Below the pieces are notes generated by a model, which did no database searches, had not been told where the DNA came from, and was given only the letters and a program-made list of their open reading frames with translations. Shown here in pieces: positions 7,476 through 27,426 of a stretch of DNA of 64,000 bases. Within the stretch, counting starts at the first letter, position 1. Every line of letters starts with the position of its first letter. Where the stretch lies: the NCBI GenBank assembly GCA_944359055.1, contig CALVSO010000001.1:37460-101459 (forward strand), given 5' to 3'. This stretch comes from an uncultured Bacilli bacterium. Lineage in GTDB: Bacteria; Bacillota_I; Bacilli_A; RF39; UBA660. A program made the translations under genes and the position numbers.

Positions 7476-7652
7476 CTTAACACCTCTATTAATAATTTTA
7501 TCAAATTTTTACATTTTAGTCTATATAATTGTTAAATGTTAATTATAATTAAAAAAAATAATTAAAATTAGTAAAATAATGTAAATAGTCTTTTAATATT
7601 AAAGAAAATATTATATAATTAGATTAATGGAATATTAGTGAGGAGAGATGTA

Positions 7653-8615: not shown

Positions 8616-8627
8616 ACGGAGATTATT

Positions 8628-9620: not shown

Positions 9621-9640
9621 ATAAATTGTGTTATTGGTAG

Positions 9641-9830
9641 CCTACAAATTGATGATGCAGAGACTGTTATAGCAGATATTTTAAATAATATTTATAAAGA
9701 TTTTGATATAATTGCTTTGCTAATTGAAAAAACTTATGTAGATATAAGTAAAAAAACTATTGAATTATGCCTCTAAAACTTCATTTAAAGAATAAATTAA
9801 AAAATTCGTTGAGAGACTTTAAAAAAAATA
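9641..9830 (+). pseudogene. Fossil chimeric junction: about 100 bp homologous to the 5' end of the GT4 gene at 10846-10950, fused to about 90 bp homologous to the 3' end of the epimerase gene at 8518-8605
   Basis: ttattggtagcctacaaattgatgatgcagagactgttatagcagatattttaaataatatttataaagattttgatataa aligns at about 90% with 10847-10930. cttatgtagatataagtaaaaaaactattgaattatgcctctaaaacttcatttaaagaataaattaaaaaattcgttga aligns at about 85% with 8518-8600. The junction shows microhomology (gaaaaac/ttatg). Confidence 0.7.
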
Positions 9831-9852
9831 ATGAAAGAGGATAGATATTTAA

Positions 9853-10811: not shown

Positions 10812-11927
10812 TTGGTGTTAATATTGAAAAAAATTTTATTTGTTATTGGTAGCCTACAAATAGGTGGGGCGGAGACTGTTATGGTAGATATTTTAAATAA
10901 TATTTATAAAGATTTTGATATAACAGTTTTATTAATTGAAAAACGTGGAGAGTTGTTAAAAAGTATATCGCCTAATATAAAATTGAAATATTTAACTAAA
11001 GGTGATGAATTTTGTAAATCTTCATTAGAAAAATTTTATAATAAAGTTAAACGAAGTTTAATTTATAGATATTTTGGTAAAAGCAAATTGTATGTAAATT
11101 ATGTATATAAAAAAATTTTAAAAACTAAATATGATACGGAAATTGCTTTTTTAGCTGGGTTACCTTCTAATCTTGTTAAAATGAGTCCAAATAATAGTCA
11201 AAAAATAGTTTGGATACATGCTAGTGTTACTAAAGATGATGTGACAACATATGAAAAATATTCAACTATTTGTAATTCTTTTGATAAGATAATAGGTGTT
11301 AGTGAATCATGTATTAATATTTTTGAAGAAACGTTTCCTGAAAGTAAAGGAAAAATTGAACTAATTCATAATTATGTTGATATAAATAAAATTATAAATA
11401 AATCAAATTTGGAAAACATTTCATTTGATTCAGATAAATTAAACATTTTATCAATTGGAAGAATTGTATCAGAAAAAGGTTTTGATAGAATTATAAATAT
11501 TGCCAAAAAATATGAAAATAAAATAAATTTTTATATTATAGGTGATGGACCATTAAAAGATAAGTTGATGCATAGTTTGGTAGAACAAAAAATTAATAAT
11601 GTTATTTTTTTAGGACTAAAGAAAAATCCTTATCCATATATAAAAAAATGTGATGCTTTTTTACTCAGTTCACGTAGTGAAGCTTATCCGACTGTTGTAA
11701 TTGAGGCAATGGTTTTAAATAAAAGTATTATAGCAACAGATGTTCCAGGGGTTAGTGAAATTTTGAAAGAATATTTAGATAAATTAATTATTCCTAATTT
11801 AGATAATAGTATTGATGAAGGTTTAAATATATGGTTAAGCAGAAAAAATAATAATAAAAATTTAACTAATAATTTTAAAAAAATAAACGATGACAATTTA
11901 AGAAAAGTAAAAAAATTATTTGAGTAG
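10812..11927 (+). CDS. Glycosyltransferase family 4 (GT-B, group 1)
   Basis: N-terminal GSLQIGGAETVMVDIL and C-terminal EAYPTVVIEAMVLNKSIIATDVPGVSEIL (the E-x7-E region). The likely start is the in-frame TTG at 10824 (MKKILFVIG). Confidence 0.85.
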   Translation: MVLILKKILFVIGSLQIGGAETVMVDILNNIYKDFDITVLLIEKRGELLKSISPNIKLKYLTKGDEFCKSSLEKFYNKVKRSLIYRYFGKSKLYVNYVYKKILKTKYDTEIAFLAGLPSNLVKMSPNNSQKIVWIHASVTKDDVTTYEKYSTICNSFDKIIGVSESCINIFEETFPESKGKIELIHNYVDINKIINKSNLENISFDSDKLNILSIGRIVSEKGFDRIINIAKKYENKINFYIIGDGPLKDKLMHSLVEQKINNVIFLGLKKNPYPYIKKCDAFLLSSRSEAYPTVVIEAMVLNKSIIATDVPGVSEILKEYLDKLIIPNLDNSIDEGLNIWLSRKNNNKNLTNNFKKINDDNLRKVKKLFE

Positions 11928-11937
11928 GGTGATTAAC

Positions 11938-14900
11938 ATGAAAACAGATAAATTTACAAAATTATTAATTTTATTTATTATATTACAACCTTTATATGAT
12001 ATTTTTATTTATTTTCTAAATAATGTAATTAATTTTGATTTACCATTCATATCATTTGTTCGTCCATTAATTTCAATTGGAATTTATTTATATTTATTGT
12101 TTAGCTATAAAATTTCAACTAAAGAAAAATTAATTTCATTTATCTATTTATCTATTTATGGAATTTATTGTATCTTACACTTAATAAATATAAGAAATAA
12201 TTTCTTTGAACTATCTTATGGCAATATGTTTAATGAAATAAGATATTTGTGTAATTATGGATATTTTATAATACAATTGATTAATTTTTATTTTATTTTT
12301 AAAATTGTTAATAAAGAAGATAGAAAAAAAATCTTAATTTCTTTCACTCTAGCTATTGGTTTAATGACATTAATGTATTTTATTTCGATTATTACTAACA
12401 CATCGCCATTAACGTATATTTTTTCTAAAGGAAAGGAAGGATGGCGTGGTTGGTCTGTTTCAGCACACTATATAGGTCATTCAATTATTTATGCTTTACC
12501 TGTCATAATTTACACGATTTTTGAAAAAAAATATATAAATAAATGGTATAAATATTTGTTTTTTACTTGCATTTTGATTCCACCTTTTTATTTAGTAGGA
12601 ACAAAAACACCTTTATTTATGACTTTATTTATAGTCCTATTTTATACATTAATGAAAATAATTGTTTCAATAAAAGATAAAAAAATAAGTAAGGATACAA
12701 TATATTTTATAACAATTTCTTTAGTTTTAATATCAACATTCAATTTAACTTACGGATATGCCAATTTTAAAAATCAAATAAGCATTTCTGAAGGTGATGA
12801 AACTGGCGATATCAATTTAATAGAAGATAATATAGATGATTATGAAGATTCAACAATGCAAGAAAATCCTGATTTATCTACTTTTGAAAATAGAATGGTA
12901 TATACATTATATAAATATAGAGATATAAAGAGTTCAGTTTTTGATAATAGAACAATTCAAAAAACATTAAATAAATATTTGTATTCTATAAGCCCTATTA
13001 AGGATAAAATATTTGGTTATGGTCATGATACAATGCCTAATTGTAATTGGGTGGAAACTGATATTTTAACTATATTTTATTGTTATGGATTGGTTGGATT
13101 TTTATTAATAATAGTTTTACCATTAGGTTATATTGCAATCAATGGTTTAAAATGTTTATTTAATATTAAAAAAATGTCAATTTCTAAATTTATTTTAGGT
13201 TTTGGATTTGGTTTATCTTTGGCAATACTTTACTTTGTTGGATATACTATGCAATTTGCTCAAACTGTATTTTATTTAATAATTCTTTTGATTATTGCAA
13301 ATGATTTATTTATTAAAATAACAAATAAAAAAATTAAAAGAGATTATTTATTTATGATAAATGATTTAAGTATAGGTGGAGCAGAAGTTGGCATGGTTGA
13401 TGTTGTTAATGAATTATCAAAAAATGGAAATAAGGTAGATATTGTATTATTACGAAAAAGAGGACCTTTATTAGAAAAATTGGATAAAAACATCAATGTT
13501 TATGAAATTTTAAATTCTGATTATAACAAAATAAAGAAAAAAATTTATCATATATTTTATATGATAGGTGGACCTTTTATAAAATATGTCTACAAAAAAA
13601 CTATAAAAGCTGATTATAATACTGAAGTTGCTTATTTAGAAGGATATCCATCAGTTTTTATTGCATCTAGTAATAATAAAAACTCAACTAAAATAGCGTC
13701 AATAAGAGTAGGCTTAAAAAATCATAAGTTAAAAGCTCATAAGATTCCTTGGGGAGAACAGCTTGTTAAAAATTCTTATAAAAAAATGGATTATATTTAT
13801 ACAGTTTCTGATTTGACTACACAAGAATTTTTAGAAAAATATCCTTTTTGTGAAGGAAAAACAAGTACTATTTATACTTATTTTAATGTTGATGATATTG
13901 TAAAAAAAGCAAAAGAAAAAATAGATTATAAATTTGATCAAAATATGATTAATTTTTTGGCAGTTGGTCGTTTCAATACTCAAAAAGGATATGATAGATT
14001 AATAGAAGCTTTTTCAAAAGTAGTTCAAAAAAATCCAAATGTTTTGTTACATTTTTTAGGAAAGTATGATACTGAAGAAGGAAAAAAAGTTATTGATTTA
14101 ATTGAAAAAAATAATATTAAAGATAAGGTAATACTTCACGGAATAAAATCTAATCCTTATCCATATATGAAACAATGTGACTGTTTGATTAGTTCTTCTT
14201 TATATGAGGGATATCCAAGAGTTATTAATGAAGCTTTATGCTTGAAAAAAATTTGTATAGGAACAAATGTTACTGGTACAAAAGAAGCGTTAAAAAATGG
14301 TAAAATGGGTCTTTTAGTAGATGATTCAATTTCAGGATTGGAAAAAGGAATGCTAGATTTTATAAATGATAAAAATATTTATGATAAATATAAAGAAGAA
14401 ATCGAAAAATTTGATGGTAACAAAGAAAGTTATTTTAAAGGTTTAGAAAAAATCAGCAACAAAAAGAAGAAAATGATTATATATATGCCAAAGTTATCTT
14501 TTGGAGGCATGGAAAAAGCTTTAGTTAATTTAATTAATTATGCTAAGTTAAATGAAAAATATGATTTAACGTTATATTTAGTATATAAGGGTGATATGAA
14601 TTATTTAGAATTATTACCTAAAAATATTAAAATAATTATTGCATGTCCAAATAAATGGAATTTATTTGGAAAAGTAACAGCATTTATAAAATTAATTTTT
14701 AGATATATTTATCAAATATTTGTTAAATATGATATTGCTATTTCATATTCTTATCAGCATCCAATTCTAACTTCTTTAACTAGATTAAGTAGTGAAAATA
14801 GTATAGTTTACATTCATTCAAATTTAATTGATGGAATGAATAAAAAATTACTGCAAAAAAGAATAAAAAAATGTAAATATGAAAAATTTAAAAAAATTAT

Positions 14901-15546
14901 TTGTGTTTCAGAAGATGCAAAGAAAGCATTAGTAGGATTAATTCATAGAAAAGATAATATTTATGTATTAAATAATGTAATAGATGGAGATAAAATATTA
15001 TTACAATCTAATGAAAAAATAGATGATTTTAAATTTGAAAATAATACTATATATTTTATTAATATATGTCGTCATATTGAAGAATCTAAAAAACTTATAA
15101 GAATAATTGAGGCTACTAATAAATTGAACAAAGAAGGATATAAATTTGAAGTTCTTTTTGTAGGTGATGGGGAAGATCATCAGTTGTATATTGATAAAAT
15201 AAAAGAATTAAACATTAACAATATTCATTTGTTAGGAAAAAAGAAAAATCCTTATAAATATTTAAATAAATCGTCAGCCCTCTTATTATCTTCAATAAGA
15301 GAAGGATATCCTGTTGTGTTTGTTGAGTCTCTTGTACTTAATATTCCAATTGTAACAACTAATGTTTCTGATGCAAAAAAAGATATTAAAAATAAATATG
15401 GAATAGTAGTTTCAAATAATGATGAAGCAATTTATGATGGTATGAAAAAATTTATTAATGAAGGATTTAAAATTAAATATAATTTTGATTATATTCAGTA
15501 TAATCAAAAAATTTATTATGAGACTATAAAAATATATGAGGAGTGA
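11938..15546 (+). CDS. Tri-domain fusion: Wzy/O-antigen-polymerase-like polytopic membrane domain (about aa 1-460), then GT4 glycosyltransferase, then a second GT4 glycosyltransferase
   Basis: The N-terminal third has 10 or more TM helices and a large hydrophilic loop (ISEGDETGDINLIEDNIDDYEDSTMQENPD...NCNWVETDILTIFYCYGLVGFLLI) typical of Wzy/EpsG polymerases. GT4 domain 1: DLSIGGAEVGMVDVVNEL...EGYPRVINEALCLKKICIGTNVTGTKEAL. GT4 domain 2: MIIYMPKLSFGGMEKALVNL...EGYPVVFVESLVLNIPIVTTNVSDAKKDI. The 1196-codon ORF (1202 from TTG 11920) is continuous. ATG at 11938 follows RBS AGGGTGA. Confidence 0.7.
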   Translation: MKTDKFTKLLILFIILQPLYDIFIYFLNNVINFDLPFISFVRPLISIGIYLYLLFSYKISTKEKLISFIYLSIYGIYCILHLINIRNNFFELSYGNMFNEIRYLCNYGYFIIQLINFYFIFKIVNKEDRKKILISFTLAIGLMTLMYFISIITNTSPLTYIFSKGKEGWRGWSVSAHYIGHSIIYALPVIIYTIFEKKYINKWYKYLFFTCILIPPFYLVGTKTPLFMTLFIVLFYTLMKIIVSIKDKKISKDTIYFITISLVLISTFNLTYGYANFKNQISISEGDETGDINLIEDNIDDYEDSTMQENPDLSTFENRMVYTLYKYRDIKSSVFDNRTIQKTLNKYLYSISPIKDKIFGYGHDTMPNCNWVETDILTIFYCYGLVGFLLIIVLPLGYIAINGLKCLFNIKKMSISKFILGFGFGLSLAILYFVGYTMQFAQTVFYLIILLIIANDLFIKITNKKIKRDYLFMINDLSIGGAEVGMVDVVNELSKNGNKVDIVLLRKRGPLLEKLDKNINVYEILNSDYNKIKKKIYHIFYMIGGPFIKYVYKKTIKADYNTEVAYLEGYPSVFIASSNNKNSTKIASIRVGLKNHKLKAHKIPWGEQLVKNSYKKMDYIYTVSDLTTQEFLEKYPFCEGKTSTIYTYFNVDDIVKKAKEKIDYKFDQNMINFLAVGRFNTQKGYDRLIEAFSKVVQKNPNVLLHFLGKYDTEEGKKVIDLIEKNNIKDKVILHGIKSNPYPYMKQCDCLISSSLYEGYPRVINEALCLKKICIGTNVTGTKEALKNGKMGLLVDDSISGLEKGMLDFINDKNIYDKYKEEIEKFDGNKESYFKGLEKISNKKKKMIIYMPKLSFGGMEKALVNLINYAKLNEKYDLTLYLVYKGDMNYLELLPKNIKIIIACPNKWNLFGKVTAFIKLIFRYIYQIFVKYDIAISYSYQHPILTSLTRLSSENSIVYIHSNLIDGMNKKLLQKRIKKCKYEKFKKIICVSEDAKKALVGLIHRKDNIYVLNNVIDGDKILLQSNEKIDDFKFENNTIYFINICRHIEESKKLIRIIEATNKLNKEGYKFEVLFVGDGEDHQLYIDKIKELNINNIHLLGKKKNPYKYLNKSSALLLSSIREGYPVVFVESLVLNIPIVTTNVSDAKKDIKNKYGIVVSNNDEAIYDGMKKFINEGFKIKYNFDYIQYNQKIYYETIKIYEE

Positions 15547-18352: not shown

Positions 18353-19813
18353 TTGAAAAATGAAAATATAAAAAATGAAGTAATTTCTTCCTTAATTTGG
18401 AAATTTTTAGAGCGTATTGGAACTCAAGGTGTTCAATTTATTGTTTCAATCATATTAGCAAGATTATTACTTCCAAGTGATTATGGAGTAGTATCTATGA
18501 TATTGGTTTTTACAGCAATTGCTAATGTTTTTATTCAAACAGGATTTAGTACATCATTGATTCAAAAAAAAGATTCTGATGAATTGGATTTTTCATCAGT
18601 ATTCTATATTAGCTTATTGATTGCAGCAATTTGTTATGTGATATTGTTTTTTGCAGCACCTATTATAGCTAGTTTTTATAATATGCCTGCTATTACTTCG
18701 ATATTAAGAGTTATATCATTGACATTATTTTTTGGAGCAATTAATTCGGTTCAAAATGCAAAAATTGCTAAAGAAATGAAATTTAAAAAATTATTTTTAA
18801 GTGGTTTAGTGGCTATTTTAATATCTGGGACTACAGGTGTCTTAATGGCATATAAAGGATTTGGACCATGGGCGCTAGTAGGTCAACAAATTGCTAATTC
18901 TATAGCAACAACTATTATTCTATGGTTTACTTCTGGTTGGCAGCCAAAGTTAATGTTTTCAATTAATAGGGTAAAGTCATTGTTATCTTATGGCTGGAAA
19001 ATATTATGTTCAGCTCTTTTAGATACTATTTATCAAAATATTTATAATTTAGTTATTGGTAAATTTTATAGTAGTAGTACTTTAGGTAATTATAATAAAG
19101 GTGAACAATTTCCTAAATTAATTGCGGTTAATGTTGATGGTGCAATAAGTTCAGTAATGTTACCAGCCTATTCAAAACAACAAGATAGAAAAGACAAATT
19201 AAAGAAAATGGTTAGAAGATCTATAGTAACAAGTTCGTTGTTGTTATTTCCTATGATGTTTGGATTGGCGGCTGTGGCAGAAACTGTTGTTAAAGTACTG
19301 CTAACAGAAAATTGGTTAGGGTGTGTTCCGTTCATGCAATTATTATGTATTGTATATGCTTTATATCCTATTAATACTGCAAATCTACAGGTAATAAAAG
19401 CATTAGGAAAAAGTGATTATTTTTTAAAACTAGAAATAATTAAAAAAATTATTGGTTTAATTGTTTTAATAGTAACTTTACCATTTGGTGTTCTTCAAAT
19501 GGCTATTGGACAAGTATTAGTAGCTATTTTATCAACTTTTATAAATGCTTTCCCTAATCGCAAGTTATTAAATTATAATTACTTTGAACAAATAAAAGAT
19601 TTGTTTCCAAGCTTAATTATTTCAATTATAATGTTTATAATTGTATATTCATTTAATTTTATTAATTTAAATATGTATATTTTATTAATCATTCAAATAT
19701 TAGTTGGAGTGATTATATATTTTGGATTGGCTTATATTTTCAAATTGGAATCATTAAATTATATGATAGAAATATTAAAATCGTTTTTAAAAAAGAAAGA
19801 GGCGTTAAAATGA
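18353..19813 (+). CDS. wzx: Wzx-type polysaccharide flippase (MOP/PST family)
   Basis: 486 aa with about 12-14 TM helices and a PST-family profile. TTG start follows RBS TGAGGTGA. Confidence 0.85.
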   Translation: MKNENIKNEVISSLIWKFLERIGTQGVQFIVSIILARLLLPSDYGVVSMILVFTAIANVFIQTGFSTSLIQKKDSDELDFSSVFYISLLIAAICYVILFFAAPIIASFYNMPAITSILRVISLTLFFGAINSVQNAKIAKEMKFKKLFLSGLVAILISGTTGVLMAYKGFGPWALVGQQIANSIATTIILWFTSGWQPKLMFSINRVKSLLSYGWKILCSALLDTIYQNIYNLVIGKFYSSSTLGNYNKGEQFPKLIAVNVDGAISSVMLPAYSKQQDRKDKLKKMVRRSIVTSSLLLFPMMFGLAAVAETVVKVLLTENWLGCVPFMQLLCIVYALYPINTANLQVIKALGKSDYFLKLEIIKKIIGLIVLIVTLPFGVLQMAIGQVLVAILSTFINAFPNRKLLNYNYFEQIKDLFPSLIISIIMFIIVYSFNFINLNMYILLIIQILVGVIIYFGLAYIFKLESLNYMIEILKSFLKKKEALK

Positions 19814-20553
19814 AATTAGGAATAATGCAACCATACTTTTTTCCATATTTAGGTTATTTTAGTTTAATAAAAAATACTGATGAATTTATATTATTTGATT
19901 CTGTACAATTTATAAAACATGGTTGGATTGAAAGAAATAGAATATTGAAACAAGGAGGAGATTGGCAATATGTTGCAGTTCCTTTAGAAAAACATTCTTT
20001 AGATACAAAAATTATGGATATTAAGATTAGAAATAGTGAAGATTGGAAAAATAAAATTTTAAGCCAATTAACTCAATATAAAAGAAAAGCTCCATATTAT
20101 AATCAAACAATAGAAGTTGTAAAAAAAGCTTTAGATATTGATACTGATAGTATTGTAGTTTTAAATAAACATATTTTAGAAGTAGTATGTGAATATTTAG
20201 GATTTTGTCCTAATATTAAGATTTTCTCAGAAATGAATTTAAAAATAGAAGAGGCAAAAGCGCCTGACGAATGGGCTTTAAATATTTGTGTTGCTATGGG
20301 TAATGTAAATGAATATTGGAATCCTCCAGGAGGAATTAGTTTTTTCGATAAAACAAAATATGATAAAAAGAATATCGAATTAAAATTTCAATCTATTAAT
20401 TTACAACCTTATGTTCAAAGAATTGGTTATTTTGAACCAGGATTATCTATAATTGATGTTATGATGTTTAATCAACCAAGTGATATATTAAAATTTTTAG
20501 ATGATTATAAATTTATAGAACCTGAAGTGGAGAAAACTATATGCAAGAAATAG
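19810..20553 (+). CDS. WbqC-like family protein
   Basis: N-terminus MKLGIMQPYFFPYLGYFSLI is the signature start of the WbqC-like family. Its start overlaps the wzx stop by 4 nt. Confidence 0.7.
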   Translation: MKLGIMQPYFFPYLGYFSLIKNTDEFILFDSVQFIKHGWIERNRILKQGGDWQYVAVPLEKHSLDTKIMDIKIRNSEDWKNKILSQLTQYKRKAPYYNQTIEVVKKALDIDTDSIVVLNKHILEVVCEYLGFCPNIKIFSEMNLKIEEAKAPDEWALNICVAMGNVNEYWNPPGGISFFDKTKYDKKNIELKFQSINLQPYVQRIGYFEPGLSIIDVMMFNQPSDILKFLDDYKFIEPEVEKTICKK

Positions 20554-21488
20554 GTGGATATATTGAATTTGGTGGTTTAATTAATAAGCCTTATCATAAA
20601 AATTGTCTTGATTTTAATAGTTCAAGAAATGCATTAAAGTATTTTATAAGATTTAATAAAATTAAAAAAATTTATTTACCAATTTATTTGTGTGAAGTGG
20701 TTTATAGAGCTTGTGTAGATGAAAAATGTGATATTGTTTTATACCATATCGATAAAGATTTTATGCCTATACTTGATGATTATGATGGCTACTCATATAT
20801 TTATTTAGTTAATTATTATGGATTGATTTCAAATGATAAAATAAAAAAGATGATGAATAAATATAAAAATTTAATAGTAGATAATACTCATTCTTTTTTT
20901 CAAAAGCCAGTAACAAATTCTATATATAATTGCAGAAAATATTTTGGAGTTGCTGACGGAGCATATTTATATAGTAACATTAAAAAAAATGATGAAATAG
21001 AACCCTATGTTGTTAATGATAAAATAGGACATTTAATAGGACGATTAGAAGAAAATGCAGCCACTTATTATACTGAATTTTCTAATAACGATAAAAAATT
21101 TGATAAAGGTAATATTTATAAAATGTCAAATTTTTCTAAGATTATAATGGGAGCTATTGATTATAAAAGTTCTTATAAAATAAGAATAGATAATTTTAAT
21201 TATTTAAATGAAAAATTAAAAAAGTTTCAGAAATTATCTTTACCTAATAATTTAACTTTTATGTATCCTTTATATGTTGATGAAGGAAAAAAAGTAAGAG
21301 ATTATTTAATTTCTAAAAAAATATATATACCTAAATTGTGGCCTAATATTGTTGAAGAAAACAATTTAAGTAAAATAGAATTAGAATATATAAATAATAT
21401 TTTGCCATTGCCAATTGATCAACGATATTCTAAAGAAGATATGGACTTTATTATAAGTAGTTTGGAGGAAATTTGTGAAGAAGTATAA
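20541..21488 (+). CDS. Hypothetical protein, possibly a degenerate PLP-fold (DegT-like) protein
   Basis: It is translationally coupled (13-nt overlap) within the sugar-modification module. There is weak resemblance to the DegT N-terminal region (NSSRNALKYFIRFNKIKKIYLPIYLCEVV), but no clear catalytic-Lys motif. Confidence 0.35.
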   Translation: MQEIGGYIEFGGLINKPYHKNCLDFNSSRNALKYFIRFNKIKKIYLPIYLCEVVYRACVDEKCDIVLYHIDKDFMPILDDYDGYSYIYLVNYYGLISNDKIKKMMNKYKNLIVDNTHSFFQKPVTNSIYNCRKYFGVADGAYLYSNIKKNDEIEPYVVNDKIGHLIGRLEENAATYYTEFSNNDKKFDKGNIYKMSNFSKIIMGAIDYKSSYKIRIDNFNYLNEKLKKFQKLSLPNNLTFMYPLYVDEGKKVRDYLISKKIYIPKLWPNIVEENNLSKIELEYINNILPLPIDQRYSKEDMDFIISSLEEICEEV

Positions 21489-22770
21489 TGTATTAATTTT
21501 TCCAGCAGGTGGAGAAAATGCTATAAATATTCATGATTCGTTAAAATATAATATTCATTTTAATTTATTTGGAGCTTCTTCTTTAGTTGATTATGGTAAA
21601 GAATTATATCCTAAATCTAATTATTGTATTGAAAATTTATATATATCTGATGAGAATTTTATAAATCGTTTTAATTGTTTAATTAATAAATTTCAAATAG
21701 ATTTGATAATTCCAACTCATGATACTATAGCATTATTTTTAATGGAAAATGAAAAAAACATAAATGCCAAAATAGTTTGCTCTCCACTTGAAACCACAAG
21801 AATTGCTCATAGTAAGAAATTGATTTTTGATAATTTAAAAAATAAATTTTATTGTCCAAAAATTTATAATAATATTGATGAAGTTAAAGATTATCCTGTT
21901 TTTTTAAAGCCAAATATTGGAGCTGGAGGAAAAGGAACATATTTAGCTAAAGATTATGAAGAACTATCTTTAAAACTAAGCTCAAATAATGATTTAGTAA
22001 TATGTGAAAATTTACCTGGTGATGAAATTACAGTAGATTGTTTCACTAATTTTAAAAGACAATTATTATTTGTTGGCCCAAGAACAAGAAAAAGAATTAC
22101 TATGGGAATTTCTTTTGAATCAAAAACAATTCCTCTTTCTGAAGAAATAGAAAAAATAGCTATAGATTTAAACAATACATTTGTATTTAGAGGAGCTTGG
22201 TTTTTTCAGTTAAAGAGAGATATTAATGGAAAATATAAATTAATGGAATTTTCTGTTAGACAAGCAGGGACAATGGCCTTGTATCGTACGTTAGGAATCA
22301 ATTTCGCACTTTTATCATTGTTTGATGCATTAGAATTAGATACAAATATTTTATATAATAAATATGATTTAACTTTAAGTAGACGTTTAAAAAATTCTTA
22401 TAATTTAAATTTTTCTTATGATAATATTTATATTGATTTTGATGATACTTTAATTATAAATAATAAAGTTAATTCAAAAGCTATGGCTTTTATTTATCAA
22501 TGTTTAAATAAAAATAAAAAAATTTATTTAATATCAAAGCATAGTACTAATATTTATGATTCATTAAAAAAATATAAAATAGATAAGTCAATTTTTGATG
22601 AAATAATAATTATAAATGAATTAGATAGTAAATCAGATTTTATTAAACATAAAAAAGCTATATTTATTGATAATTATTATAAAGAAAGAAAAGAAGTTTT
22701 TGAAAAAAAACATATTCCTGTATTTGATGTTGATGTGATAGAAAATTTGATTGATTATTCTGATATTTAA
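21475..22770 (+). CDS. ATP-grasp domain protein fused to a C-terminal HAD-like hydrolase domain
   Basis: ATP-grasp core YPVFLKPNIGAGGKGTYLAKDYEEL...ITVDCF...WFFQLKRDINGKYKLMEFSVRQAG. HAD motif I IYIDFDDTLI is in the C-terminal third. Confidence 0.65.
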   Translation: MKKYNVLIFPAGGENAINIHDSLKYNIHFNLFGASSLVDYGKELYPKSNYCIENLYISDENFINRFNCLINKFQIDLIIPTHDTIALFLMENEKNINAKIVCSPLETTRIAHSKKLIFDNLKNKFYCPKIYNNIDEVKDYPVFLKPNIGAGGKGTYLAKDYEELSLKLSSNNDLVICENLPGDEITVDCFTNFKRQLLFVGPRTRKRITMGISFESKTIPLSEEIEKIAIDLNNTFVFRGAWFFQLKRDINGKYKLMEFSVRQAGTMALYRTLGINFALLSLFDALELDTNILYNKYDLTLSRRLKNSYNLNFSYDNIYIDFDDTLIINNKVNSKAMAFIYQCLNKNKKIYLISKHSTNIYDSLKKYKIDKSIFDEIIIINELDSKSDFIKHKKAIFIDNYYKERKEVFEKKHIPVFDVDVIENLIDYSDI

Positions 22771-22783
22771 GGAGTGACTAAAT

Positions 22784-23881
22784 TTGAATAAAATTAATGT
22801 AACAAGATCTTCAATGCCAACATTTGAAGAATATATAAATGAAATAAAACCACTTTGGGATTCAAGATGGCTAACTAATTGTGGAATTTTGCACAATGAA
22901 TTAGAAGAACAATTAGAAAAATATTTAAATGTTAAAAATGTTTCTTTATTTAATAATGGACATTTAGCACTATATACTGCTATTAATAGTTTAGATTTAA
23001 AAGGAGAAGTTATAACAACACCATTTACTTTTGTTTCTACAACTAATGCAATTGTTCAAAATAATTTAAAACCTGTTTTTTGTGATATTAATGAAGAAGA
23101 TTATACAATTGATGTAGATAAAATTGAACAACTGATAACTGATAAGACAAGTGCTATAGTGGCAGTTCATGTTTATGGTAATGTTTGTAATGTAGATAAA
23201 ATAGAAAAAATTGCAAAAAAACATAATTTAAAAGTAATATATGATGCTGCACATGCATTTGGTGTTGAGTATAATGGAAAAACTATTGGCAATTATGGTG
23301 ATATATCAATGATGAGCTTTCATGCTACAAAAGTTTTTCATACTATAGAAGGTGGAGCATTATTATACAATTCAAATATAAAAGAAAAAATAAAAAGTTT
23401 AAGAAATTTTGGTATTATAAATCAAGAGGAATGTGAATATATAGGGATGAATACCAAAATGAGTGAATTTCATGCAGCTATGGGAATATGTAATTTGAGA
23501 CATATTGATGAAGAAATATTAAAAAGAAAAAAAATAGTTGAAAGATATCAAGAAAAATTAAAAGATATTCCAGGAATAAAATGTTGGCAAAAGCAAAAAA
23601 ATGTAAAAGCTAATTATATTTATTTTCCTATTTATATTGATGAAAAAAAATATGGAATATCAAGAGATTTATTATTCGAAAAATTAAAAGAAAAAGGAAT
23701 AATTGCTAGAAAATATTTTTATCCGTTAGTAACAGATTTTAAATGTTACAAAAATTATGCTTCAAATACGCCAATTGCTAAAAAAATAGCTAATGGTATT
23801 TTAACTTTACCCTTGTATTCAGATTTAAATTTTGATCAAGTTGATTATATTTGTGATATAATAAAGATGAAAGGAAAGTAG
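22784..23881 (+). CDS. DegT/DnrJ/EryC1/StrS-family PLP-dependent sugar aminotransferase
   Basis: Conserved SFHATKVFHTIEGGALL (PLP-lysine region) and the N-terminal layout. TTG start 9 nt after AAGGAG. Confidence 0.85.
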   Translation: MNKINVTRSSMPTFEEYINEIKPLWDSRWLTNCGILHNELEEQLEKYLNVKNVSLFNNGHLALYTAINSLDLKGEVITTPFTFVSTTNAIVQNNLKPVFCDINEEDYTIDVDKIEQLITDKTSAIVAVHVYGNVCNVDKIEKIAKKHNLKVIYDAAHAFGVEYNGKTIGNYGDISMMSFHATKVFHTIEGGALLYNSNIKEKIKSLRNFGIINQEECEYIGMNTKMSEFHAAMGICNLRHIDEEILKRKKIVERYQEKLKDIPGIKCWQKQKNVKANYIYFPIYIDEKKYGISRDLLFEKLKEKGIIARKYFYPLVTDFKCYKNYASNTPIAKKIANGILTLPLYSDLNFDQVDYICDIIKMKGK

Positions 23882-23883
23882 TT

Positions 23884-24750
23884 ATGAAAGGAATAATTTT
23901 AGCTGGTGGTAAAGGAACTAGGTTATACCCAATGACTAAATCAGTTTCTAAACAACTTTTGCCACTTTATGATAAACCAATGATATATTATCCATTATCA
24001 GTATTGCTTTTAGCAGAAATAAAAGAAATATTGATTATATCTACGCCTGACGATATTGATGATTATAAAAAACTTTTAGGTGATGGATCAAATATTGGAG
24101 TTAAATTTACTTATGCTATTCAAGAAAAACCAAAAGGTTTAGCAGATGCTTTTATAATTGGAGAAAAATTTATTGGTAAAGATAATGTATGTTTAATTTT
24201 AGGTGATAATATTTTTTATGGAAGTAATCTTTCAGAAATTTTAGCTAATGCTCAAAAAAACAAAGGTGCTACTATTTTTGCTTGTACTGTTAAAGATCCA
24301 AAATCTTTTGGTGTTATAGAATTAGATAAAAATAGAAATATTATTTCAATTGAAGAAAAACCACAAAATCCTAAATCTAATTTAGCGATTCCAGGTTTAT
24401 ATTTTTATGATAATACTGTTATTGAAAAAGCTAAAAATGTAAAACCTTCCCCAAGAGGTGAAATAGAAATTACTGCAATTAATGAAGCTTATTTAAAAGA
24501 AAATAATCTTAATGTGAGCATGATGGGAAGAGGAATAGCATGGTTAGATACTGGAACACCTCAAAATTTGTTAAAAGCAGCTGAATTTGTTGAAGCTATT
24601 CAATCGAGACAAGGATATTATATTTCTTGCATTGAAGAAATAGCTTGGAGAAAAAAATTTATTTCAAATGAAAAATTAAAAGAAATAGGTGAACAATTAA
24701 AAATGACAGATTATGGTAAATATCTATTATCTTTATTAGAGGAGGAGTAG
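23884..24750 (+). CDS. rmlA: Glucose-1-phosphate thymidylyltransferase
   Basis: MKGIILAGGKGTRLYPMT...GLADAF...GDNIFYG are canonical RmlA motifs. Confidence 0.9.
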   Translation: MKGIILAGGKGTRLYPMTKSVSKQLLPLYDKPMIYYPLSVLLLAEIKEILIISTPDDIDDYKKLLGDGSNIGVKFTYAIQEKPKGLADAFIIGEKFIGKDNVCLILGDNIFYGSNLSEILANAQKNKGATIFACTVKDPKSFGVIELDKNRNIISIEEKPQNPKSNLAIPGLYFYDNTVIEKAKNVKPSPRGEIEITAINEAYLKENNLNVSMMGRGIAWLDTGTPQNLLKAAEFVEAIQSRQGYYISCIEEIAWRKKFISNEKLKEIGEQLKMTDYGKYLLSLLEEE

Positions 24751-24751
24751 T

Positions 24752-25762
24752 ATGAAAGTATTAGTAACAGGAGGAGCTGGATTTATTGGTAGCAATTTTT
24801 TACACTATATGGTAAATAAGTATCCAGAATATTATTTCGTATGTTATGATGCATTAACTTATGCAGGAAACTATGAAAATTTATCTTATATATTGGATAA
24901 AACTAATTTTGAATTTGTAAAAGGTGATATAACTAACAAAGAGGAAGTAGAAAAATTATTTCAAGAAAACAATTTTGATTGGGTAATTAATTTTGCTGCT
25001 GAAAGCCATGTGGATAATTCTATTAAAAATCCAAGTGTCTTTTTGAAAACAAATATTATAGGTACCCAGATTTTAATGGATGCTTCTAGAAAATATGGAA
25101 TTAAAAGGTATCACCAAATATCTACTGATGAAGTTTATGGAGATTTACCTTTAGATAAAAAAGAATTGAAATTTAAAGAAACAACACCTATTAAGACATC
25201 TAGTCCTTATTCAGCTTCTAAAGCTTCAGCTGATTTATTGGTTTTGGCATATATAAGAACTTATGGTTTCCCAGCAACAATTTCAAGATGTTCAAATAAT
25301 TATGGGCCATATCAATTTCCAGAAAAATTAATTCCTGTAGTAATAAGCAAAGCTTTAAAAAATGAAAATATTCCAGTTTATGGTAACGGATTAAATGTTA
25401 GGGATTGGATATATGTTAAAGATCATAATATAGCAGTAGATTTAATTATGCATAAAGGAAAAATTGGTGAAGTTTATAATATAGGCGGAAATAGTGAAAA
25501 GTCTAATATTGATTTAGTTAAAATAATTTTAAAAGAGTTAAATAAATCGGAAGAATTAATTACATTTGTAAAAGATAGAGCTGGTCATGATATGAGATAT
25601 GCTATTGATTCTTCAAAAATAGAAAAAGAATTAGGCTGGAAAAGAACTGTTAACTTTGAAGAAGGTATTGTTAAAACTATTAAATGGTATTTAGATAATC
25701 AAGTATGGATAAACAATATTGAAAATGGTTCATATAAAGATTTTTATAAGGAGGTAAAATAA
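24752..25762 (+). CDS. rmlB: dTDP-glucose 4,6-dehydratase
   Basis: VTGGAGFIGSNF...YSASKASADLLV (Y-x3-K). RmlB-like length and order after rmlA. Confidence 0.9.
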   Translation: MKVLVTGGAGFIGSNFLHYMVNKYPEYYFVCYDALTYAGNYENLSYILDKTNFEFVKGDITNKEEVEKLFQENNFDWVINFAAESHVDNSIKNPSVFLKTNIIGTQILMDASRKYGIKRYHQISTDEVYGDLPLDKKELKFKETTPIKTSSPYSASKASADLLVLAYIRTYGFPATISRCSNNYGPYQFPEKLIPVVISKALKNENIPVYGNGLNVRDWIYVKDHNIAVDLIMHKGKIGEVYNIGGNSEKSNIDLVKIILKELNKSEELITFVKDRAGHDMRYAIDSSKIEKELGWKRTVNFEEGIVKTIKWYLDNQVWINNIENGSYKDFYKEVK

Positions 25763-25763
25763 T

Positions 25764-27086
25764 ATGAAAATAGCAGTAGCAGGTACAGGATATGTAGGTT
25801 TAGTCACAGGAGTTGCTTTAGCACATATTGGCCATAATGTTAAGTGTGTTGATGTAGATGAAAAGAAAATTGAATTGATGAAAAGTGGTAAAAGTCCGAT
25901 ATATGAAAAAGATTTAGAAGAATTAATGTTAAAAAACAAAAAAAGATTAGATTATACGACAGATTATAAAGAAGCATATAAAGATGCAGAAATAATAATT
26001 ATTGGTGTTGGAACACCAGAAAGAGCAGACGGCTCAGCTAATTTAGATTATGTATATAGTGTATGTGAGCAAATAGCTGAAGTTTTAGAAAATGATTGTG
26101 TGGTTGTTGTAAAATCAACTGTCCCAATTGGAACTAATGATAATGTTGAAAAATATTTAAAGGAACATGTTAAAAACAATTTAAATATCTATGTTGCAAG
26201 CAATCCAGAGTTCTTAGCTCAAGGAACTGCGGTTAGAGATACATTATATGCTTCTAGAATAGTTATTGGTACAGAAGATGATAAAGCAAAAGAAATACTA
26301 ACAAAAATGTATGAACCATTGACAAAAGATCCATATAATGTACCATTTTTAGCTACAAATAGAAGAAGTGCTGAAATGATAAAATATGCGTCTAATGATT
26401 TTTTAGCTTTAAAAATTTCTTATGTTAATGAAATTGCAAATTTATGTGAAAAATTAGGCGCTAATATAGAAGACGTTACTAAAGGTATGGGTTTAGATAG
26501 TAGAATAGGTAATAAATTTTTAAATGCCGGAATTGGTTATGGAGGAAGTTGTTTCCCAAAAGATACAAAAGCTTTACATTGGCTAAGTGTTAGTGAAGGT
26601 GTTGAGTTAAAAACAGTAAAGGCATGTATTGAAGTTAATAAGGCTCAAAAAATTAAATTATATGAAAAATTACATAATGATATTCCTGATTTAAAAGGTA
26701 AAACAATAGCAGTTTTGGGATTAACATTTAAACCTGGAACAGATGATCTTCGTGAAGCACCTTCAATAGATAACATTGAATTATTGCTTGATGCTGGGGC
26801 TAATATAAAAGCATATGACCCAGTAGGAATTGAAAATTTTAAAAAGAAAATAGCTTATAAACTAGAACAAGATGGAATAACTGGTACTATAAATTATTTT
26901 AATAATATAGATGATGCTATTGAAAATGCAGATGCTACTTTAATAATGACAGAGTGGTCTGACATAAAAAATTATGATATTAATAAATATAAAAAATTAA
27001 TGAAAAATCCTTTAATCTATGATGGAAGAAATTGTTATTCTTTAAGTGCTATGAATGGACTTACATATAAATCAATTGGTAGATAA
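25764..27086 (+). CDS. ugd: UDP-glucose 6-dehydrogenase
   Basis: MKIAVAGTGYVGLV...GYGGSCFPKDTKAL (catalytic Cys) ...LGLTFKPGTDDLREAPS. Confidence 0.9.
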   Translation: MKIAVAGTGYVGLVTGVALAHIGHNVKCVDVDEKKIELMKSGKSPIYEKDLEELMLKNKKRLDYTTDYKEAYKDAEIIIIGVGTPERADGSANLDYVYSVCEQIAEVLENDCVVVVKSTVPIGTNDNVEKYLKEHVKNNLNIYVASNPEFLAQGTAVRDTLYASRIVIGTEDDKAKEILTKMYEPLTKDPYNVPFLATNRRSAEMIKYASNDFLALKISYVNEIANLCEKLGANIEDVTKGMGLDSRIGNKFLNAGIGYGGSCFPKDTKALHWLSVSEGVELKTVKACIEVNKAQKIKLYEKLHNDIPDLKGKTIAVLGLTFKPGTDDLREAPSIDNIELLLDAGANIKAYDPVGIENFKKKIAYKLEQDGITGTINYFNNIDDAIENADATLIMTEWSDIKNYDINKYKKLMKNPLIYDGRNCYSLSAMNGLTYKSIGR

Positions 27087-27186: not shown

Positions 27187-27426
27187 ATGATTTACAAAAA
27201 CTATTTGAAAAGGTTGTTTGATTTATTATTTTCTCTTTTATTAATTTTTTTGTTATGGCCTTTATTTTTATTAATTTATTTAATAATTTTGATATTTGAT
27301 GGCAGACCGGTTTTATATAAACAACTTAGAACAGGAAAAGATGGTGAAGATTTTTTTGTGTATAAATATAGAACGATGAATAATGTTTTAAAAGAGAAAG
27401 AAATTTTGGAAATATTATTATACTAA
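27187..27426 (+). pseudogene. Truncated remnant (first ~65 codons) of a polyprenyl-phosphate sugar phosphotransferase (WbaP/CpsE/WcaJ 'bacterial sugar transferase' family)
   Basis: YLKRLFDLLFSLLLIFLLWPLFLLIYLIILIFDGRPVLYKQLRTGKDGEDFFVYKYRTM is the diagnostic start of the bacterial sugar-transferase catalytic domain. The ORF stops 15 codons later. No continuation is recognisable in any frame, so the rest appears deleted. Confidence 0.7.

What the first reader, a model, noticed from the sequence alone, without database searches (positions are those of the whole stretch)
19810..23881. Translationally coupled sugar-modification module: WbqC-like, unknown protein, ATP-grasp-HAD fusion and DegT aminotransferase, adjacent to rmlA and rmlB but without rmlC/rmlD
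The four genes overlap by 4-14 nt, which indicates co-translation. With rmlA and rmlB present but no 3,5-epimerase or 4-reductase, the dTDP-4-keto-6-deoxyglucose intermediate is most plausibly transaminated by the DegT enzyme to a dTDP-4-amino-4,6-dideoxyhexose of viosamine type. The ATP-grasp-HAD fusion and the WbqC-like protein are candidates for N-acylation of that amine with an amino acid or hydroxy acid, as in the N-acyl viosamine and perosamine derivatives of Gram-negative O-antigens. The ATP-grasp plus HAD domain combination itself is unusual.
Basis: inference. Interest (0 to 1): 0.6.

Follow-up and report, generated by a model that had tools for sequence, protein, structure and literature searches.

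The report
Operon for an amino-acid-decorated viosamine sugar

Summary
The genes are real and sit where stated. Three junctions overlap (wzx/wbqC 4 nt, wbqC/next 13 nt, next/ATP-grasp 14 nt). The ATP-grasp and DegT genes are separated by a 13-nt spacer.

- RmlA and RmlB pass NCBIfam cut-offs. No rmlC or rmlD lies in the 64 kb.
- The DegT is VioA/DesI-like (46% identical to E. coli VioA).
- The 'unknown' protein is a divergent DegT-fold PLP enzyme that keeps the PLP lysine and aspartate.
- The C-terminus of the ATP-grasp protein carries all four HAD phosphatase motifs. No Pfam model covers it.

Comparative genomics shows a three-slot cassette:
1. WbqC or a Ddl-like ATP-grasp.
2. The PLP protein.
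3. A GNAT or this ATP-grasp-HAD.

DegT is always nearby and RmlA/RmlB usually are. E. coli O121 (N-acetylglycyl-Qui4N) has WbqC and a GNAT. O123 (3-hydroxybutanoyl-D-alanyl-Qui4N) has WbqC, the PLP protein and a GNAT.

The window therefore probably makes dTDP-Qui4N, then adds an aminoacyl group (possibly made D), then a cap installed by the ATP-grasp-HAD, probably from a phosphorylated acid. All chemistry is inferred.

The fusion is uncharacterised but common (438 species genomes). I rate this a new variant of a known kind, interest about 0.55.

The parts
18353..19813 (+). Wzx-type flippase. Its stop overlaps the wbqC start by 4 nt (ATGA).
   Evidence: PF13440 at 331 bits. Junction shown. It takes the same position in the collinear cassettes L094 and L098.
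19810..20553 (+). WbqC-family protein. Proposed role: slot 1, attaching an amino acid (Gly/Ala type) to the 4-amino group of dTDP-Qui4N.
   Evidence: PF08889 at 221 bits. The AF2 model has pLDDT 92.8 and no PDB fold match. It is 33-35% identical to the WbqC of E. coli O121 and O123, whose O antigens carry glycyl- and D-alanyl-Qui4N. In other loci a Ddl-like ATP-grasp ligase takes its place. The function is inferred.
20541..21488 (+). The 'unknown' gene: a divergent DegT-fold PLP-dependent protein of 315 aa with no Pfam or NCBIfam model. Proposed role: slot 2, acting on the aminoacyl residue, most likely as an L-to-D epimerase.
   Evidence: AF2 pLDDT 89.9. The top Foldseek PDB hits are all sugar aminotransferases, best E 3e-12, probability 1.0. 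hhalign against the window DegT gives E 1.2e-5, with D114 and K133 aligned to the PLP Asp and Lys. It is 31% identical (E 6e-47) to the 'hypothetical protein' of the E. coli O123 cluster. No homologue is present in O121.
21475..22374 (+). ATP-grasp part (about residues 1-300) of the 431-aa fusion protein. Proposed role: slot 3, an ATP-dependent amide ligase that caps the free amine.
   Evidence: PF15632 and PF02655 score above their cut-offs. The best PDB match is 2pn1, a CPS-like ATP-grasp, at 1.6e-12 with the family profile. It occupies the position a GNAT holds in the collinear loci L094 and L098. DegT lies within 7 kb in 64 of 78 related loci.
22390..22767 (+). C-terminal HAD-like phosphatase domain (residues 306-431) of the same protein.
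   Evidence: Conserved motifs: DxDxT (D321, D323, T325), S/T-K-H (K355 in at least 90% of sequences, H356), K386 and D399-N400, which reads DD in divergent members. With profile A5, all 10 PDB hits are HAD proteins, best E 0.008. The weak NCBIfam hits are mostly HAD families. There is no Pfam hit. The domain is found almost only fused to this ATP-grasp.
22784..23881 (+). DegT-family aminotransferase of VioA/DesI type. Proposed reaction: dTDP-4-keto-6-deoxy-D-glucose to dTDP-4-amino-4,6-dideoxy-D-glucose (Qui4N).
   Evidence: PF01041 at 338 bits. The best NCBIfam model is DesI (TIGR04427) at 299.5 bits, below its cut-off of 650. The best PDB match is DesI 2po3 at 3.8e-59. It is 46% identical to annotated E. 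coli VioA and 49% to the O123 DegT. The cluster holds no 3,4-ketoisomerase-sized gene.
23884..24750 (+). RmlA, glucose-1-phosphate thymidylyltransferase.
   Evidence: TIGR01207 at 444.7 bits against a cut-off of 360.65.
24752..25762 (+). RmlB, dTDP-glucose 4,6-dehydratase.
   Evidence: TIGR01181 at 477.9 bits against a cut-off of 365.1.

Best explanation
The segment is the nucleotide-sugar part of a Wzx-dependent surface-polysaccharide operon in an uncultured Bacilli bacterium. It builds a viosamine (Qui4N) whose 4-amino group carries a two-part side chain.

Proposed steps:
1. RmlA and RmlB make dTDP-4-keto-6-deoxy-D-glucose. This follows from homology above curated cut-offs.
2. The VioA/DesI-like DegT aminates C4 to give dTDP-Qui4N. 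This is inferred from homology and context.
3. WbqC attaches an amino acid of the Gly/Ala type to that amine. This is inferred from E. coli O121 and O123, and from WbqC being interchangeable with Ddl-like ATP-grasp ligases.
4. The former 'unknown' protein, a DegT-fold PLP enzyme, acts on the free alpha-amino acyl group. My best guess is that it inverts it from L to D. This is inferred from its presence in O123 (D-alanyl) and absence in O121 (glycyl).
5. The ATP-grasp half of the fusion protein activates a carboxylic acid as an acyl phosphate and ligates it to the remaining free amine. This is the job a GNAT does in sister cassettes. The fused HAD phosphatase implies that the acid enters as a phosphate ester, such as 3-phosphoglycerate or another small phospho-acid, and is dephosphorylated after ligation. 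That would leave a hydroxy-acyl cap, for example glyceroyl. The identity of the acid is a guess.
For: Enzyme identities:
- RmlA, RmlB, the DegT and WbqC are identified.
- The unknown protein has a DegT fold with the PLP Lys and Asp retained.
- The HAD motifs are invariant, and 10 of 10 weak PDB profile hits are HAD proteins.

Neighbourhood of the fusion protein (78 related genome loci):
- DegT lies within 7 kb in 64, WbqC in 27-28, RmlB in 25, RmlA in 21 and Ugd in only 2.
- In 10 of the 13 closest relatives, the PLP protein sits immediately upstream of the fusion gene.

Neighbourhood of the PLP protein (9 of 9 sampled contexts):
- It is accompanied by a DegT and by either WbqC (5) or an orthologous Ddl-like ATP-grasp (4). 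The slot-1 gene lies immediately upstream in 7.
- It is usually followed by a GNAT.
- L094 and L098 are collinear with the window: Wzx-WbqC-PLP-[GNAT]-DegT-RmlA-RmlB, most proteins 43-70% identical (one WbqC 33%). The window has the ATP-grasp-HAD where they have the GNAT.

Chemical anchors:
- E. coli O121 carries N-acetylglycyl-Qui4N and O123 carries N-[(S)-3-hydroxybutanoyl]-D-alanyl-Qui4N (PMC7685785; other N-acyl-aminoacyl Qui4N sugars in PMC3210612).
- Their clusters read rfbB-rfbA-DegT-WbqC-GNAT and rfbB-rfbA-wzx-DegT-WbqC-PLP homologue-GNAT-MaoC.

Precedents:
- In C. jejuni, the ATP-dependent amidoligase Cj1438C uses a phosphorylated substrate, and the HAD phosphatase Cj1435 then removes the phosphate (PMC12409886 and PMC13276843).
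- In Neisseria, the ATP-grasp domain of PglB2 gives a 4-glyceramido trideoxyhexose (PMC11130364).
Against: - No biochemical or structural data exist for any of the three key families. All function is inferred from context.
- The D/L argument for the PLP protein rests on only two O antigens of known structure.
- Many fusion-protein loci lack both WbqC and the PLP protein (Bacillus, Oscillospiraceae). There the enzyme must acylate Qui4N directly, so its acceptor in the window could also be Qui4N itself.
- One close relative (L017) has the PLP protein and the fusion but no slot-1 ligase within 7 kb.
- The HAD assignment has no significant single hit. There is no Pfam hit, the best PDB E-value is 0.008, and hhalign against GmhB aligned only motif I.
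- The DegT scores below the DesI equivalog cut-off.
- The phosphorylated acid is not identified by any neighbouring gene.
Confidence: 0.55

Rival explanations
1. The components are the same but the order differs. The ATP-grasp-HAD acylates the 4-amino group of dTDP-Qui4N directly. The acyl group could be a phospho-amino acid such as O-phosphoserine, which is then dephosphorylated. WbqC and the PLP protein would act afterwards on that residue, or on a different acceptor.
For: In most related loci the fusion gene occurs with DegT but without WbqC or the PLP protein. Direct acylation of Qui4N must therefore be its activity there. L017 has the PLP protein and the fusion but no slot-1 ligase.
Against: In the collinear cassettes the fusion gene replaces the GNAT (the capping step), not WbqC. 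In E. coli O121, which has no ATP-grasp, WbqC is the only candidate for the amino-acid transfer to Qui4N and a GNAT adds the cap. The closest relatives of the window protein keep the PLP gene directly upstream.
Confidence: 0.2
2. The HAD domain works before ligation rather than after it. It would dephosphorylate a central metabolite, for example turning 3- or 2-phosphoglycerate into glycerate or phosphoglycolate into glycolate. That would supply a scarce free hydroxy acid, which the ATP-grasp then ligates.
For: Fused phosphatases often supply the substrate of the partner domain. The HAD motifs, including the Asp+2 general acid, are invariant. No other gene in the loci would make the acid.
Against: The only documented parallel in polysaccharide synthesis ligates the phosphorylated compound first and dephosphorylates afterwards. 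The sequence does not discriminate between the two orders.
Confidence: 0.15
3. This is a Campylobacter-type glucuronamide system. The ATP-grasp would amidate the carboxylate of a glucuronic acid residue (Ugd lies downstream) with a phosphorylated amine made by one of the two PLP enzymes. The HAD domain would then remove the phosphate.
For: Ugd lies at 25764-27086. The C. jejuni system has the same set of parts: two PLP enzymes, an ATP-dependent amidoligase, a HAD phosphatase and Ugd.
Against: Ugd lies near the fusion gene in only 2 of 78 loci, against DegT in 64 and RmlA/RmlB in 21-25. The DegT is 46% identical to VioA and best matches DesI. The window has two other ATP-grasp genes (8628-9620 and 9853-10767) that could serve a uronic acid.
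Confidence: 0.07
4. This is an ordinary rhamnose locus. rmlC and rmlD would lie elsewhere in the genome, and the DegT would be a 3-aminotransferase or unrelated to the ATP-grasp.
For: Only 64 kb of the genome is visible, so rmlC and rmlD elsewhere cannot be excluded.
Against: - No rmlC or rmlD lies in the window.
- The cluster holds no 3,4-ketoisomerase.
- The DegT ranks DesI and VioA above the 3-aminotransferases QdtB and DesV.
- The fusion gene and DegT are linked in 64 of 78 loci.
Confidence: 0.03

Closest known systems
[quoted passage not shown]
   Same: Both have RmlA and RmlB, a VioA-like DegT (49% identical), WbqC (33-35%) and a homologue of the DegT-fold PLP protein (31%, E 6e-47). Both keep the WbqC-then-PLP-protein order next to wzx.
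   Different: In E. coli a GNAT plus a MaoC hydratase add the cap, using an acyl-CoA. In the window an ATP-grasp-HAD fusion does this job. The host here is a low-GC Gram-positive-lineage bacterium. None of the O123 genes has been tested biochemically, as far as the held literature shows.
E. coli O121 / Shigella dysenteriae 7 genes for N-acetylglycyl-Qui4N (origin of the name WbqC)
   Same: The order rfbB-rfbA-DegT-WbqC followed by a capping acyltransferase is shared. The product is an aminoacyl-Qui4N with an N-cap.
   Different: O121 has no PLP protein and no ATP-grasp. Its amino acid, glycine, is achiral.
Campylobacter jejuni capsule enzymes Cj1438C (ATP-dependent amidoligase) and Cj1435 (HAD phosphatase)
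   Same: The logic matches. ATP-dependent amide formation uses a phosphorylated small molecule, and a HAD phosphatase then removes the phosphate, all within polysaccharide synthesis.
   Different: In C. jejuni the sugar supplies the carboxylate (GlcA) and the small molecule supplies the amine, and the two enzymes are separate proteins. Here the sugar side supplies the amine and the two activities are fused.
Neisseria PglB2 (ATP-grasp domain) that makes glyceramido-acetamido-trideoxyhexose
   Same: An ATP-grasp domain replaces an acetyltransferase to put a hydroxy-acyl (glyceroyl) group on the 4-amino group of a 4-amino-6-deoxy sugar.
   Different: PglB2 acts on a UDP-linked bacillosamine precursor. 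It is fused to a phosphoglycosyl transferase, not to a HAD domain. Homology to the window protein was not tested.
VioA/VioB and DesI pathways (dTDP-Qui4N and dTDP-Qui4NAc)
   Same: RmlA, RmlB and a C4 aminotransferase of the same subfamily are shared.
   Different: The window has no VioB-type acetyltransferase. Three other enzymes follow the amination step.

Membership tests
DegT/DnrJ/EryC1 sugar aminotransferases, VioA/DesI (C4, gluco) subtype: gene 22784-23881 | A Pfam PF01041 match above the gathering score, with the PLP lysine in the SFHxxK motif. | tested here: met
   338 bits against a cut-off of 19.8. The motifs 'SFHATK' and 'DAAHAF' are present in the translation.
DegT/DnrJ/EryC1 sugar aminotransferases, VioA/DesI (C4, gluco) subtype: gene 22784-23881 | An equivalog-level match to a characterised dTDP-4-keto-6-deoxyglucose 4-aminotransferase. 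| tested here: not met
   TIGR04427 (DesI) is the best model, but it scores 299.5 bits against a cut-off of 650. The protein is 46% identical to annotated E. coli VioA. The subtype is therefore likely but not assured.
DegT/DnrJ/EryC1 sugar aminotransferases, VioA/DesI (C4, gluco) subtype: gene 22784-23881 | A substrate supply from RmlA and RmlB, with no 3,4-ketoisomerase that would move the keto group to C3. | tested here: met
   RmlA and RmlB are adjacent. Every ORF of at least 100 aa in 6405-27086 is assigned, and none is a cupin isomerase.
WbqC family (PF08889): gene 19810-20553 | A Pfam match above the gathering score. | tested here: met
   221 bits against a cut-off of 21.3, covering the full length of the model.
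WbqC family (PF08889): gene 19810-20553 | Aminoacyl ('glycine') transferase activity on Qui4N. | not testable with these tools
   There are only database names such as 'putative glycine transferase' and the correlation with O121 and O123 chemistry. There is no solved fold relative.
DegT-fold (fold-type I) PLP enzymes: gene 20541-21488 | A three-dimensional fold like that of sugar aminotransferases. | tested here: met
   The AF2 model has pLDDT 89.9. The top 50 Foldseek hits are all DegT-type or closely related aminotransferases, with E down to 3e-12 and TM about 0.6-0.69.
DegT-fold (fold-type I) PLP enzymes: gene 20541-21488 | The Schiff-base lysine and the pyridine-N aspartate are conserved. 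| tested here: met
   D114 and K133 are invariant in 32 homologues. They align to the DegT Asp and Lys in hhalign, E 1.2e-5.
DegT-fold (fold-type I) PLP enzymes: gene 20541-21488 | A match to the Pfam or NCBIfam DegT sequence models. | tested here: not met
   There are no Pfam or NCBIfam hits, and the family profile finds no PDB sequence. The protein also lacks about 50 N-terminal residues of DegT. I therefore file it as a separate, unnamed family with a DegT fold, not as a DegT aminotransferase.
ATP-grasp superfamily: residues 1-300 of gene 21475-22770 | Pfam ATP-grasp models above the gathering score. | tested here: met
   PF15632 scores 49.1 against 29.1 and PF02655 scores 27.2 against 23.2. 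The family profile hits ATP-grasp structure 2pn1 at 1.6e-12.
HAD phosphatase superfamily: residues 306-431 of gene 21475-22770 | The four catalytic motifs in order: I DxDxT with Asp+2, II S/T, III Lys, IV DD or DN. | tested here: met
   D321, D323, T325, H356, K386, D399 and N400 are invariant in 26 homologues, and K355 is conserved in at least 90% of them. Motif IV reads 'FIDDSF' in divergent members.
HAD phosphatase superfamily: residues 306-431 of gene 21475-22770 | Significant sequence or profile similarity to known HAD proteins. | tested here: inconclusive
   There are no Pfam hits. The NCBIfam hits are weak but mostly HAD families, best E 0.0036. Profile A5 finds 10 PDB chains, all HAD, best E 0.008. 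hhalign against GmhB aligned motif I only.
HAD phosphatase superfamily: residues 306-431 of gene 21475-22770 | A Rossmannoid HAD fold. | not tested
Campylobacter-type amidoligase/phosphatase pair (Cj1438C/Cj1435) | An ATP-dependent amide ligase together with a HAD phosphatase in a polysaccharide locus. | tested here: met
   The domain content is shown. The precedent is described.
Campylobacter-type amidoligase/phosphatase pair (Cj1438C/Cj1435) | The acceptor is a uronic acid carboxylate, so the genes are linked to Ugd. | tested here: not met
   Ugd lies near the fusion gene in 2 of 78 loci, against DegT in 64. The module works like this system but is not a member of it.

The most novel reading that the evidence does not exclude
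The operon would hold three new enzyme activities.
1. WbqC would be an amide-forming aminoacyl transferase with a fold not seen in solved structures. It might use aminoacyl-tRNA, since WbqC genes also sit in operons with a dedicated tRNA-Pro and prolyl-tRNA synthetase (PMC10404621).
2. The DegT-fold PLP enzyme would epimerise an amino acid while it hangs on a nucleotide sugar.
3. The ATP-grasp-HAD fusion would install a hydroxy-acyl cap by ligating a phosphorylated central metabolite such as 3-phosphoglycerate and then removing the phosphate.

The product would be a sugar not yet described, for example N-glyceroyl-D-alanyl-viosamine, on the surface of a gut Bacilli lineage.
Probability: 0.2. 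Interest if true: 0.75.

Novelty: new variant of a known kind. Interest (0 to 1): 0.55.

Why it matters
N-acyl-aminoacyl derivatives of viosamine are known serotype-defining parts of O antigens, including those of STEC O121 and O123. As far as I could find in the literature held here, the enzymes that attach the amino acid and set its configuration have never been assigned experimentally.

This locus and its relatives give a simple, testable three-slot scheme. It assigns roles to three large unannotated or vaguely annotated families:
- WbqC, with more than 7,000 database hits.
- A DegT-fold PLP family with about 3,500 hits and no Pfam model.
- An ATP-grasp-HAD fusion present in 438 species genomes.

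If the scheme is confirmed, annotation of thousands of polysaccharide loci would improve. It would also supply new amide-forming enzymes for glyco-engineering and predict new surface antigens in uncultured gut bacteria.

Tried and rejected
- Sequence searches of the 'unknown' protein, alone and as a 32-sequence profile, against the PDB found nothing. Only the predicted structure revealed the DegT fold.
- Pfam on the C-terminal domain, alone and for 17 family members, gave no HAD hit. A narrow profile against the PDB gave nothing. hhalign against E. coli GmhB aligned only motif I.
- A whole-library phmmer search with the C-terminal domain reached only its own family and no canonical HAD proteins.
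- Literature searches found no functional study. The queries were WbqC; ATP-grasp with viosamine or Qui4N; ATP-grasp with HAD; and ATP-grasp with dTDP amino sugars.
- Three key papers were not held: Chamot-Rooke 2007, Wang 2007 and Riegert 2022 on the amidoligase.
- The promoter and terminator scan was uninformative in this 23% GC DNA.
- No tRNA gene lies near the module. The only one is tRNA-Met at 31557.
- I considered and rejected reading the second PLP protein as a free alanine racemase. Its fold is that of nucleotide-sugar enzymes, and E. coli already has D-alanine.
- I considered and ranked low the idea that it transaminates a 2-oxoacyl group. O121 makes glycyl-Qui4N without it.

Full report
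**What is in the sequence**

The window is very AT-rich, about 23% G+C. Positions 6405-27086 hold a surface-polysaccharide locus read almost entirely on the + strand. The four genes of the finding are at the stated coordinates.

The junctions:

| Junction | Overlap or spacer |
|---|---|
| wzx / wbqC | 4-nt overlap (ATGA) |
| wbqC / next gene | 13-nt overlap |
| next gene / ATP-grasp gene | 14-nt overlap |
| ATP-grasp / DegT | 13-nt spacer with an AAGGAG |
| DegT / rmlA | 2-nt spacer |
| rmlA / rmlB | 1-nt spacer |
| rmlB / ugd | 1-nt spacer |

The operon is therefore tightly packed, but 'four genes overlapping by 4-14 nt' is only partly right.

The same gene order is found on five independent metagenome contigs. 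It also occurs at 98% identity in a MAG labelled 'uncultured Bacilli bacterium' (L006).

**Identity of the parts**

- RmlA (TIGR01207) and RmlB (TIGR01181) score above NCBI's equivalog cut-offs.
- E. coli RfbC and RfbD find nothing anywhere in the 64 kb.
- The DegT protein matches PF01041 at 338 bits. Its best curated model is DesI, though below that model's cut-off, and its best solved relative is DesI 2po3 at 3.8e-59. It is 46% identical to a protein NCBI annotates as E. coli VioA and 49% identical to the DegT of the O123 cluster.
- The cluster has no gene that could be a 3,4-ketoisomerase. Amination at C4 of the RmlB product, giving Qui4N (viosamine), is therefore the straightforward reading.
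- WbqC is a clear PF08889 member.

**The 'unknown' protein**

It has no Pfam, NCBIfam or PDB sequence match, even as a profile. It does have about 3,500 database relatives. In an alignment of 32 of them, 'VDN..FF' and 'CRKyFGVpDGaY' are nearly invariant.

An AlphaFold model is confident (pLDDT 89.9). Its top Foldseek hits are all sugar aminotransferases such as ArnB, WlaRG, DesV, PglE and perosamine synthase, with E down to 3e-12.

Profile alignment to the window's own DegT (E 1.2e-5) places D114 on the PLP-binding aspartate and K133 on the Schiff-base lysine. It is therefore a divergent, N-terminally shortened, probably active PLP enzyme with a DegT fold.

**The ATP-grasp protein**

Residues of about 110-290 match ATP-grasp models. 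The last 125 residues match no Pfam model.

In 26 homologues this tail keeps D321-x-D323-x-T325, an S/T-K-H motif, K386 and D399-N400 invariant or nearly so. This is the order and spacing of HAD motifs I-IV. The Asp+2 marks phosphatases, by the established classification of the superfamily. More distant members read 'FIDDSF' at motif IV.

A profile of 30 diverse domains found ten PDB chains at E <= 10. All ten are HAD proteins, the best at E 0.008. The weak NCBIfam hits are also mostly HAD families. I accept the HAD assignment as likely. The fold itself was not modelled.

A search of 1.8 billion representative proteins found 745 clusters with this domain. Nearly all are about 430 aa long with the domain at the C-terminus, and the shorter entries are fragments that still show ATP-grasp sequence. 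The fusion is thus a fixed, widespread architecture. 438 species genomes from Bacillota, Bacteroidota, Proteobacteria, Chloroflexota, Verrucomicrobiota, Patescibacteria and others encode a relative. It is uncharacterised, not rare.

**Context across genomes**

In 78 loci around relatives of the fusion gene, the counts within 7 kb are:

| Neighbour | Loci (of 78) |
|---|---|
| VioA-like DegT | 64 |
| WbqC | 27-28 |
| RmlB | 25 |
| RmlA | 21 |
| DegT-fold PLP protein | 13 |
| Ugd | 2 |

Among the 13 closest relatives, 10 have the PLP gene immediately upstream of the fusion gene.

Starting instead from the PLP protein, I looked at seven further loci plus E. coli O123 and the window.
- In 9 of 9 a DegT is present.
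- In 9 of 9 the PLP gene is accompanied by WbqC (5) or by an orthologous family of Ddl-like ATP-grasp ligases (4). That gene lies immediately upstream of the PLP gene in 7 of the 9. The same ligase family also appears in three of the fusion loci.
- The gene after it is usually a GNAT.

Two loci, L094 and L098, read Wzx-WbqC-PLP-GNAT-DegT-RmlA-RmlB. Most of their proteins are 43-70% identical to the window's, with one WbqC at 33%. The window differs only in having the ATP-grasp-HAD where they have the GNAT.

**Chemical anchors**

The E. coli O-antigen review lists N-acetylglycine for O121. [quoted passage not shown] Other Qui4N sugars with N-acetyl-D-alanyl or hydroxybutyryl-L-alanyl groups are known (PMC3210612).

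- The O121 cluster reads rfbB-rfbA-DegT-WbqC-GNAT.
- The O123 cluster reads rfbB-rfbA-wzx-DegT-WbqC-'hypothetical'-GNAT-MaoC. The 'hypothetical' protein is a homologue of the window's PLP protein (31% identity, E 6e-47).

In O121 no candidate other than WbqC exists for joining glycine to Qui4N. This fits the database label 'putative glycine transferase' and WbqC's interchangeability with amino-acid ligases. The PLP protein appears when the amino acid is D-alanine and is missing when it is glycine. That suggests it sets the configuration of the sugar-bound residue. A fold-type I PLP epimerase acting on an aminoacyl side chain has a precedent in isopenicillin N epimerase (from my own knowledge, not checked here). 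The GNAT caps the amino acid's amine.

**Proposed mechanism for the window**

1. RmlA and RmlB act first. This step is established by homology.
2. The DegT gives dTDP-Qui4N (inferred, strong).
3. WbqC adds a Gly/Ala-type amino acid (inferred, moderate).
4. The PLP protein modifies it, probably from L to D (inferred, weak to moderate).
5. The ATP-grasp half of the fusion ligates a carboxylic acid to the free amine through an acyl phosphate, which is the general ATP-grasp mechanism.
6. The HAD half removes a phosphate that the acid carried.

The last idea is modelled on C. jejuni. There the ATP-dependent amidoligase Cj1438C couples ethanolamine phosphate or serinol phosphate, and the HAD phosphatase Cj1435 then hydrolyses the phosphate. 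It also draws on Neisseria PglB2, whose ATP-grasp domain yields a 4-glyceramido sugar.

3-Phosphoglycerate is my best guess for the acid. It is abundant, activating its carboxylate would give an enzyme-bound 1,3-bisphosphoglycerate, and no gene for making a special acid accompanies the fusion. This remains a guess.

**Rivals**

- The fusion may acylate Qui4N directly, as it must in the many loci without WbqC and the PLP protein. WbqC would then act afterwards.
- The HAD domain may act before ligation.
- A Campylobacter-like glucuronamide role is unlikely given the linkage statistics. The window also has two other ATP-grasp genes that could serve Ugd's product.
- A plain rhamnose pathway is very unlikely.

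**Novelty and verdict**

The type of sugar (N-acyl-aminoacyl-viosamine) is known. The enzymes for the side chain are not described in the literature I could search. The window shows a variant in which an ATP-grasp-HAD fusion replaces the usual GNAT cap enzyme, in a Gram-positive-lineage gut bacterium.

I class it as a new variant of a known kind, interest about 0.55. Its main value is a testable three-slot scheme that assigns roles to three large unannotated families.

Noticed in passing
window 27187-27426 (+): A 79-aa remnant of a Bac_transf (PF02397) phosphoglycosyl transferase lies directly after ugd. It is truncated and probably a pseudogene. The initiating enzyme of the locus is then probably the WecA/MraY-like gene at 6405-7475 (-).
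   Followed up: partly
window 7638-10767 (+) and 25764-27086 (+): The locus holds a second possible amide-forming unit: a GalE/TviC-like SDR, a RimK/LysX-like ATP-grasp (8628-9620) and a TupA-like ATP-grasp (9853-10767). Together with UDP-glucose dehydrogenase, this suggests an amino-acid-amidated uronic acid in the same polymer.
   Followed up: partly
window 11920-15546 (+): A 1208-aa fusion joins an O-antigen-ligase/polymerase-like membrane domain to two GT1 glycosyltransferase domains.
   Followed up: no
P0403 (733 aa; relative of the window protein 21475-22770): This is a triple fusion: ATP-grasp, the HAD-like domain, and a C-terminal Acetyltransf_6 (Fem-like GNAT) domain at E 2.9e-4, just below the Pfam cut-off. 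It hints that aminoacyl or acyl transfer is physically coupled to this enzyme in some lineages.
   Followed up: partly
L015, L020-L041, L048, L056 (Bacteroidota and Proteobacteria loci): In these loci two tandem genes for GH32-like beta-propeller proteins and two class-I methyltransferases flank the ATP-grasp-HAD gene. Bacillus loci carry a TagF-like glycerophosphotransferase instead, and Oscillospiraceae loci carry LicD. The meaning is unexplained.
   Followed up: partly
window 19810-20553 and homologues P0242-P0360: The window's WbqC belongs to a subfamily kept at 60-78% identity across distant phyla (Clostridia, Marinimicrobia, Elusimicrobia). That is far more conserved than the neighbouring genes. 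A second WbqC subfamily, about 33% identical, includes the E. coli O121 and O123 proteins.
   Followed up: no
literature: PMC10404621, Figure 2: In some bacteria, WbqC genes lie in operons with a dedicated tRNA-Pro variant, a special prolyl-tRNA synthetase, a GT4, LmbE and MurG. This would fit an aminoacyl-tRNA-dependent transfer to a deacetylated amino sugar. The authors do not propose this.
   Followed up: partly
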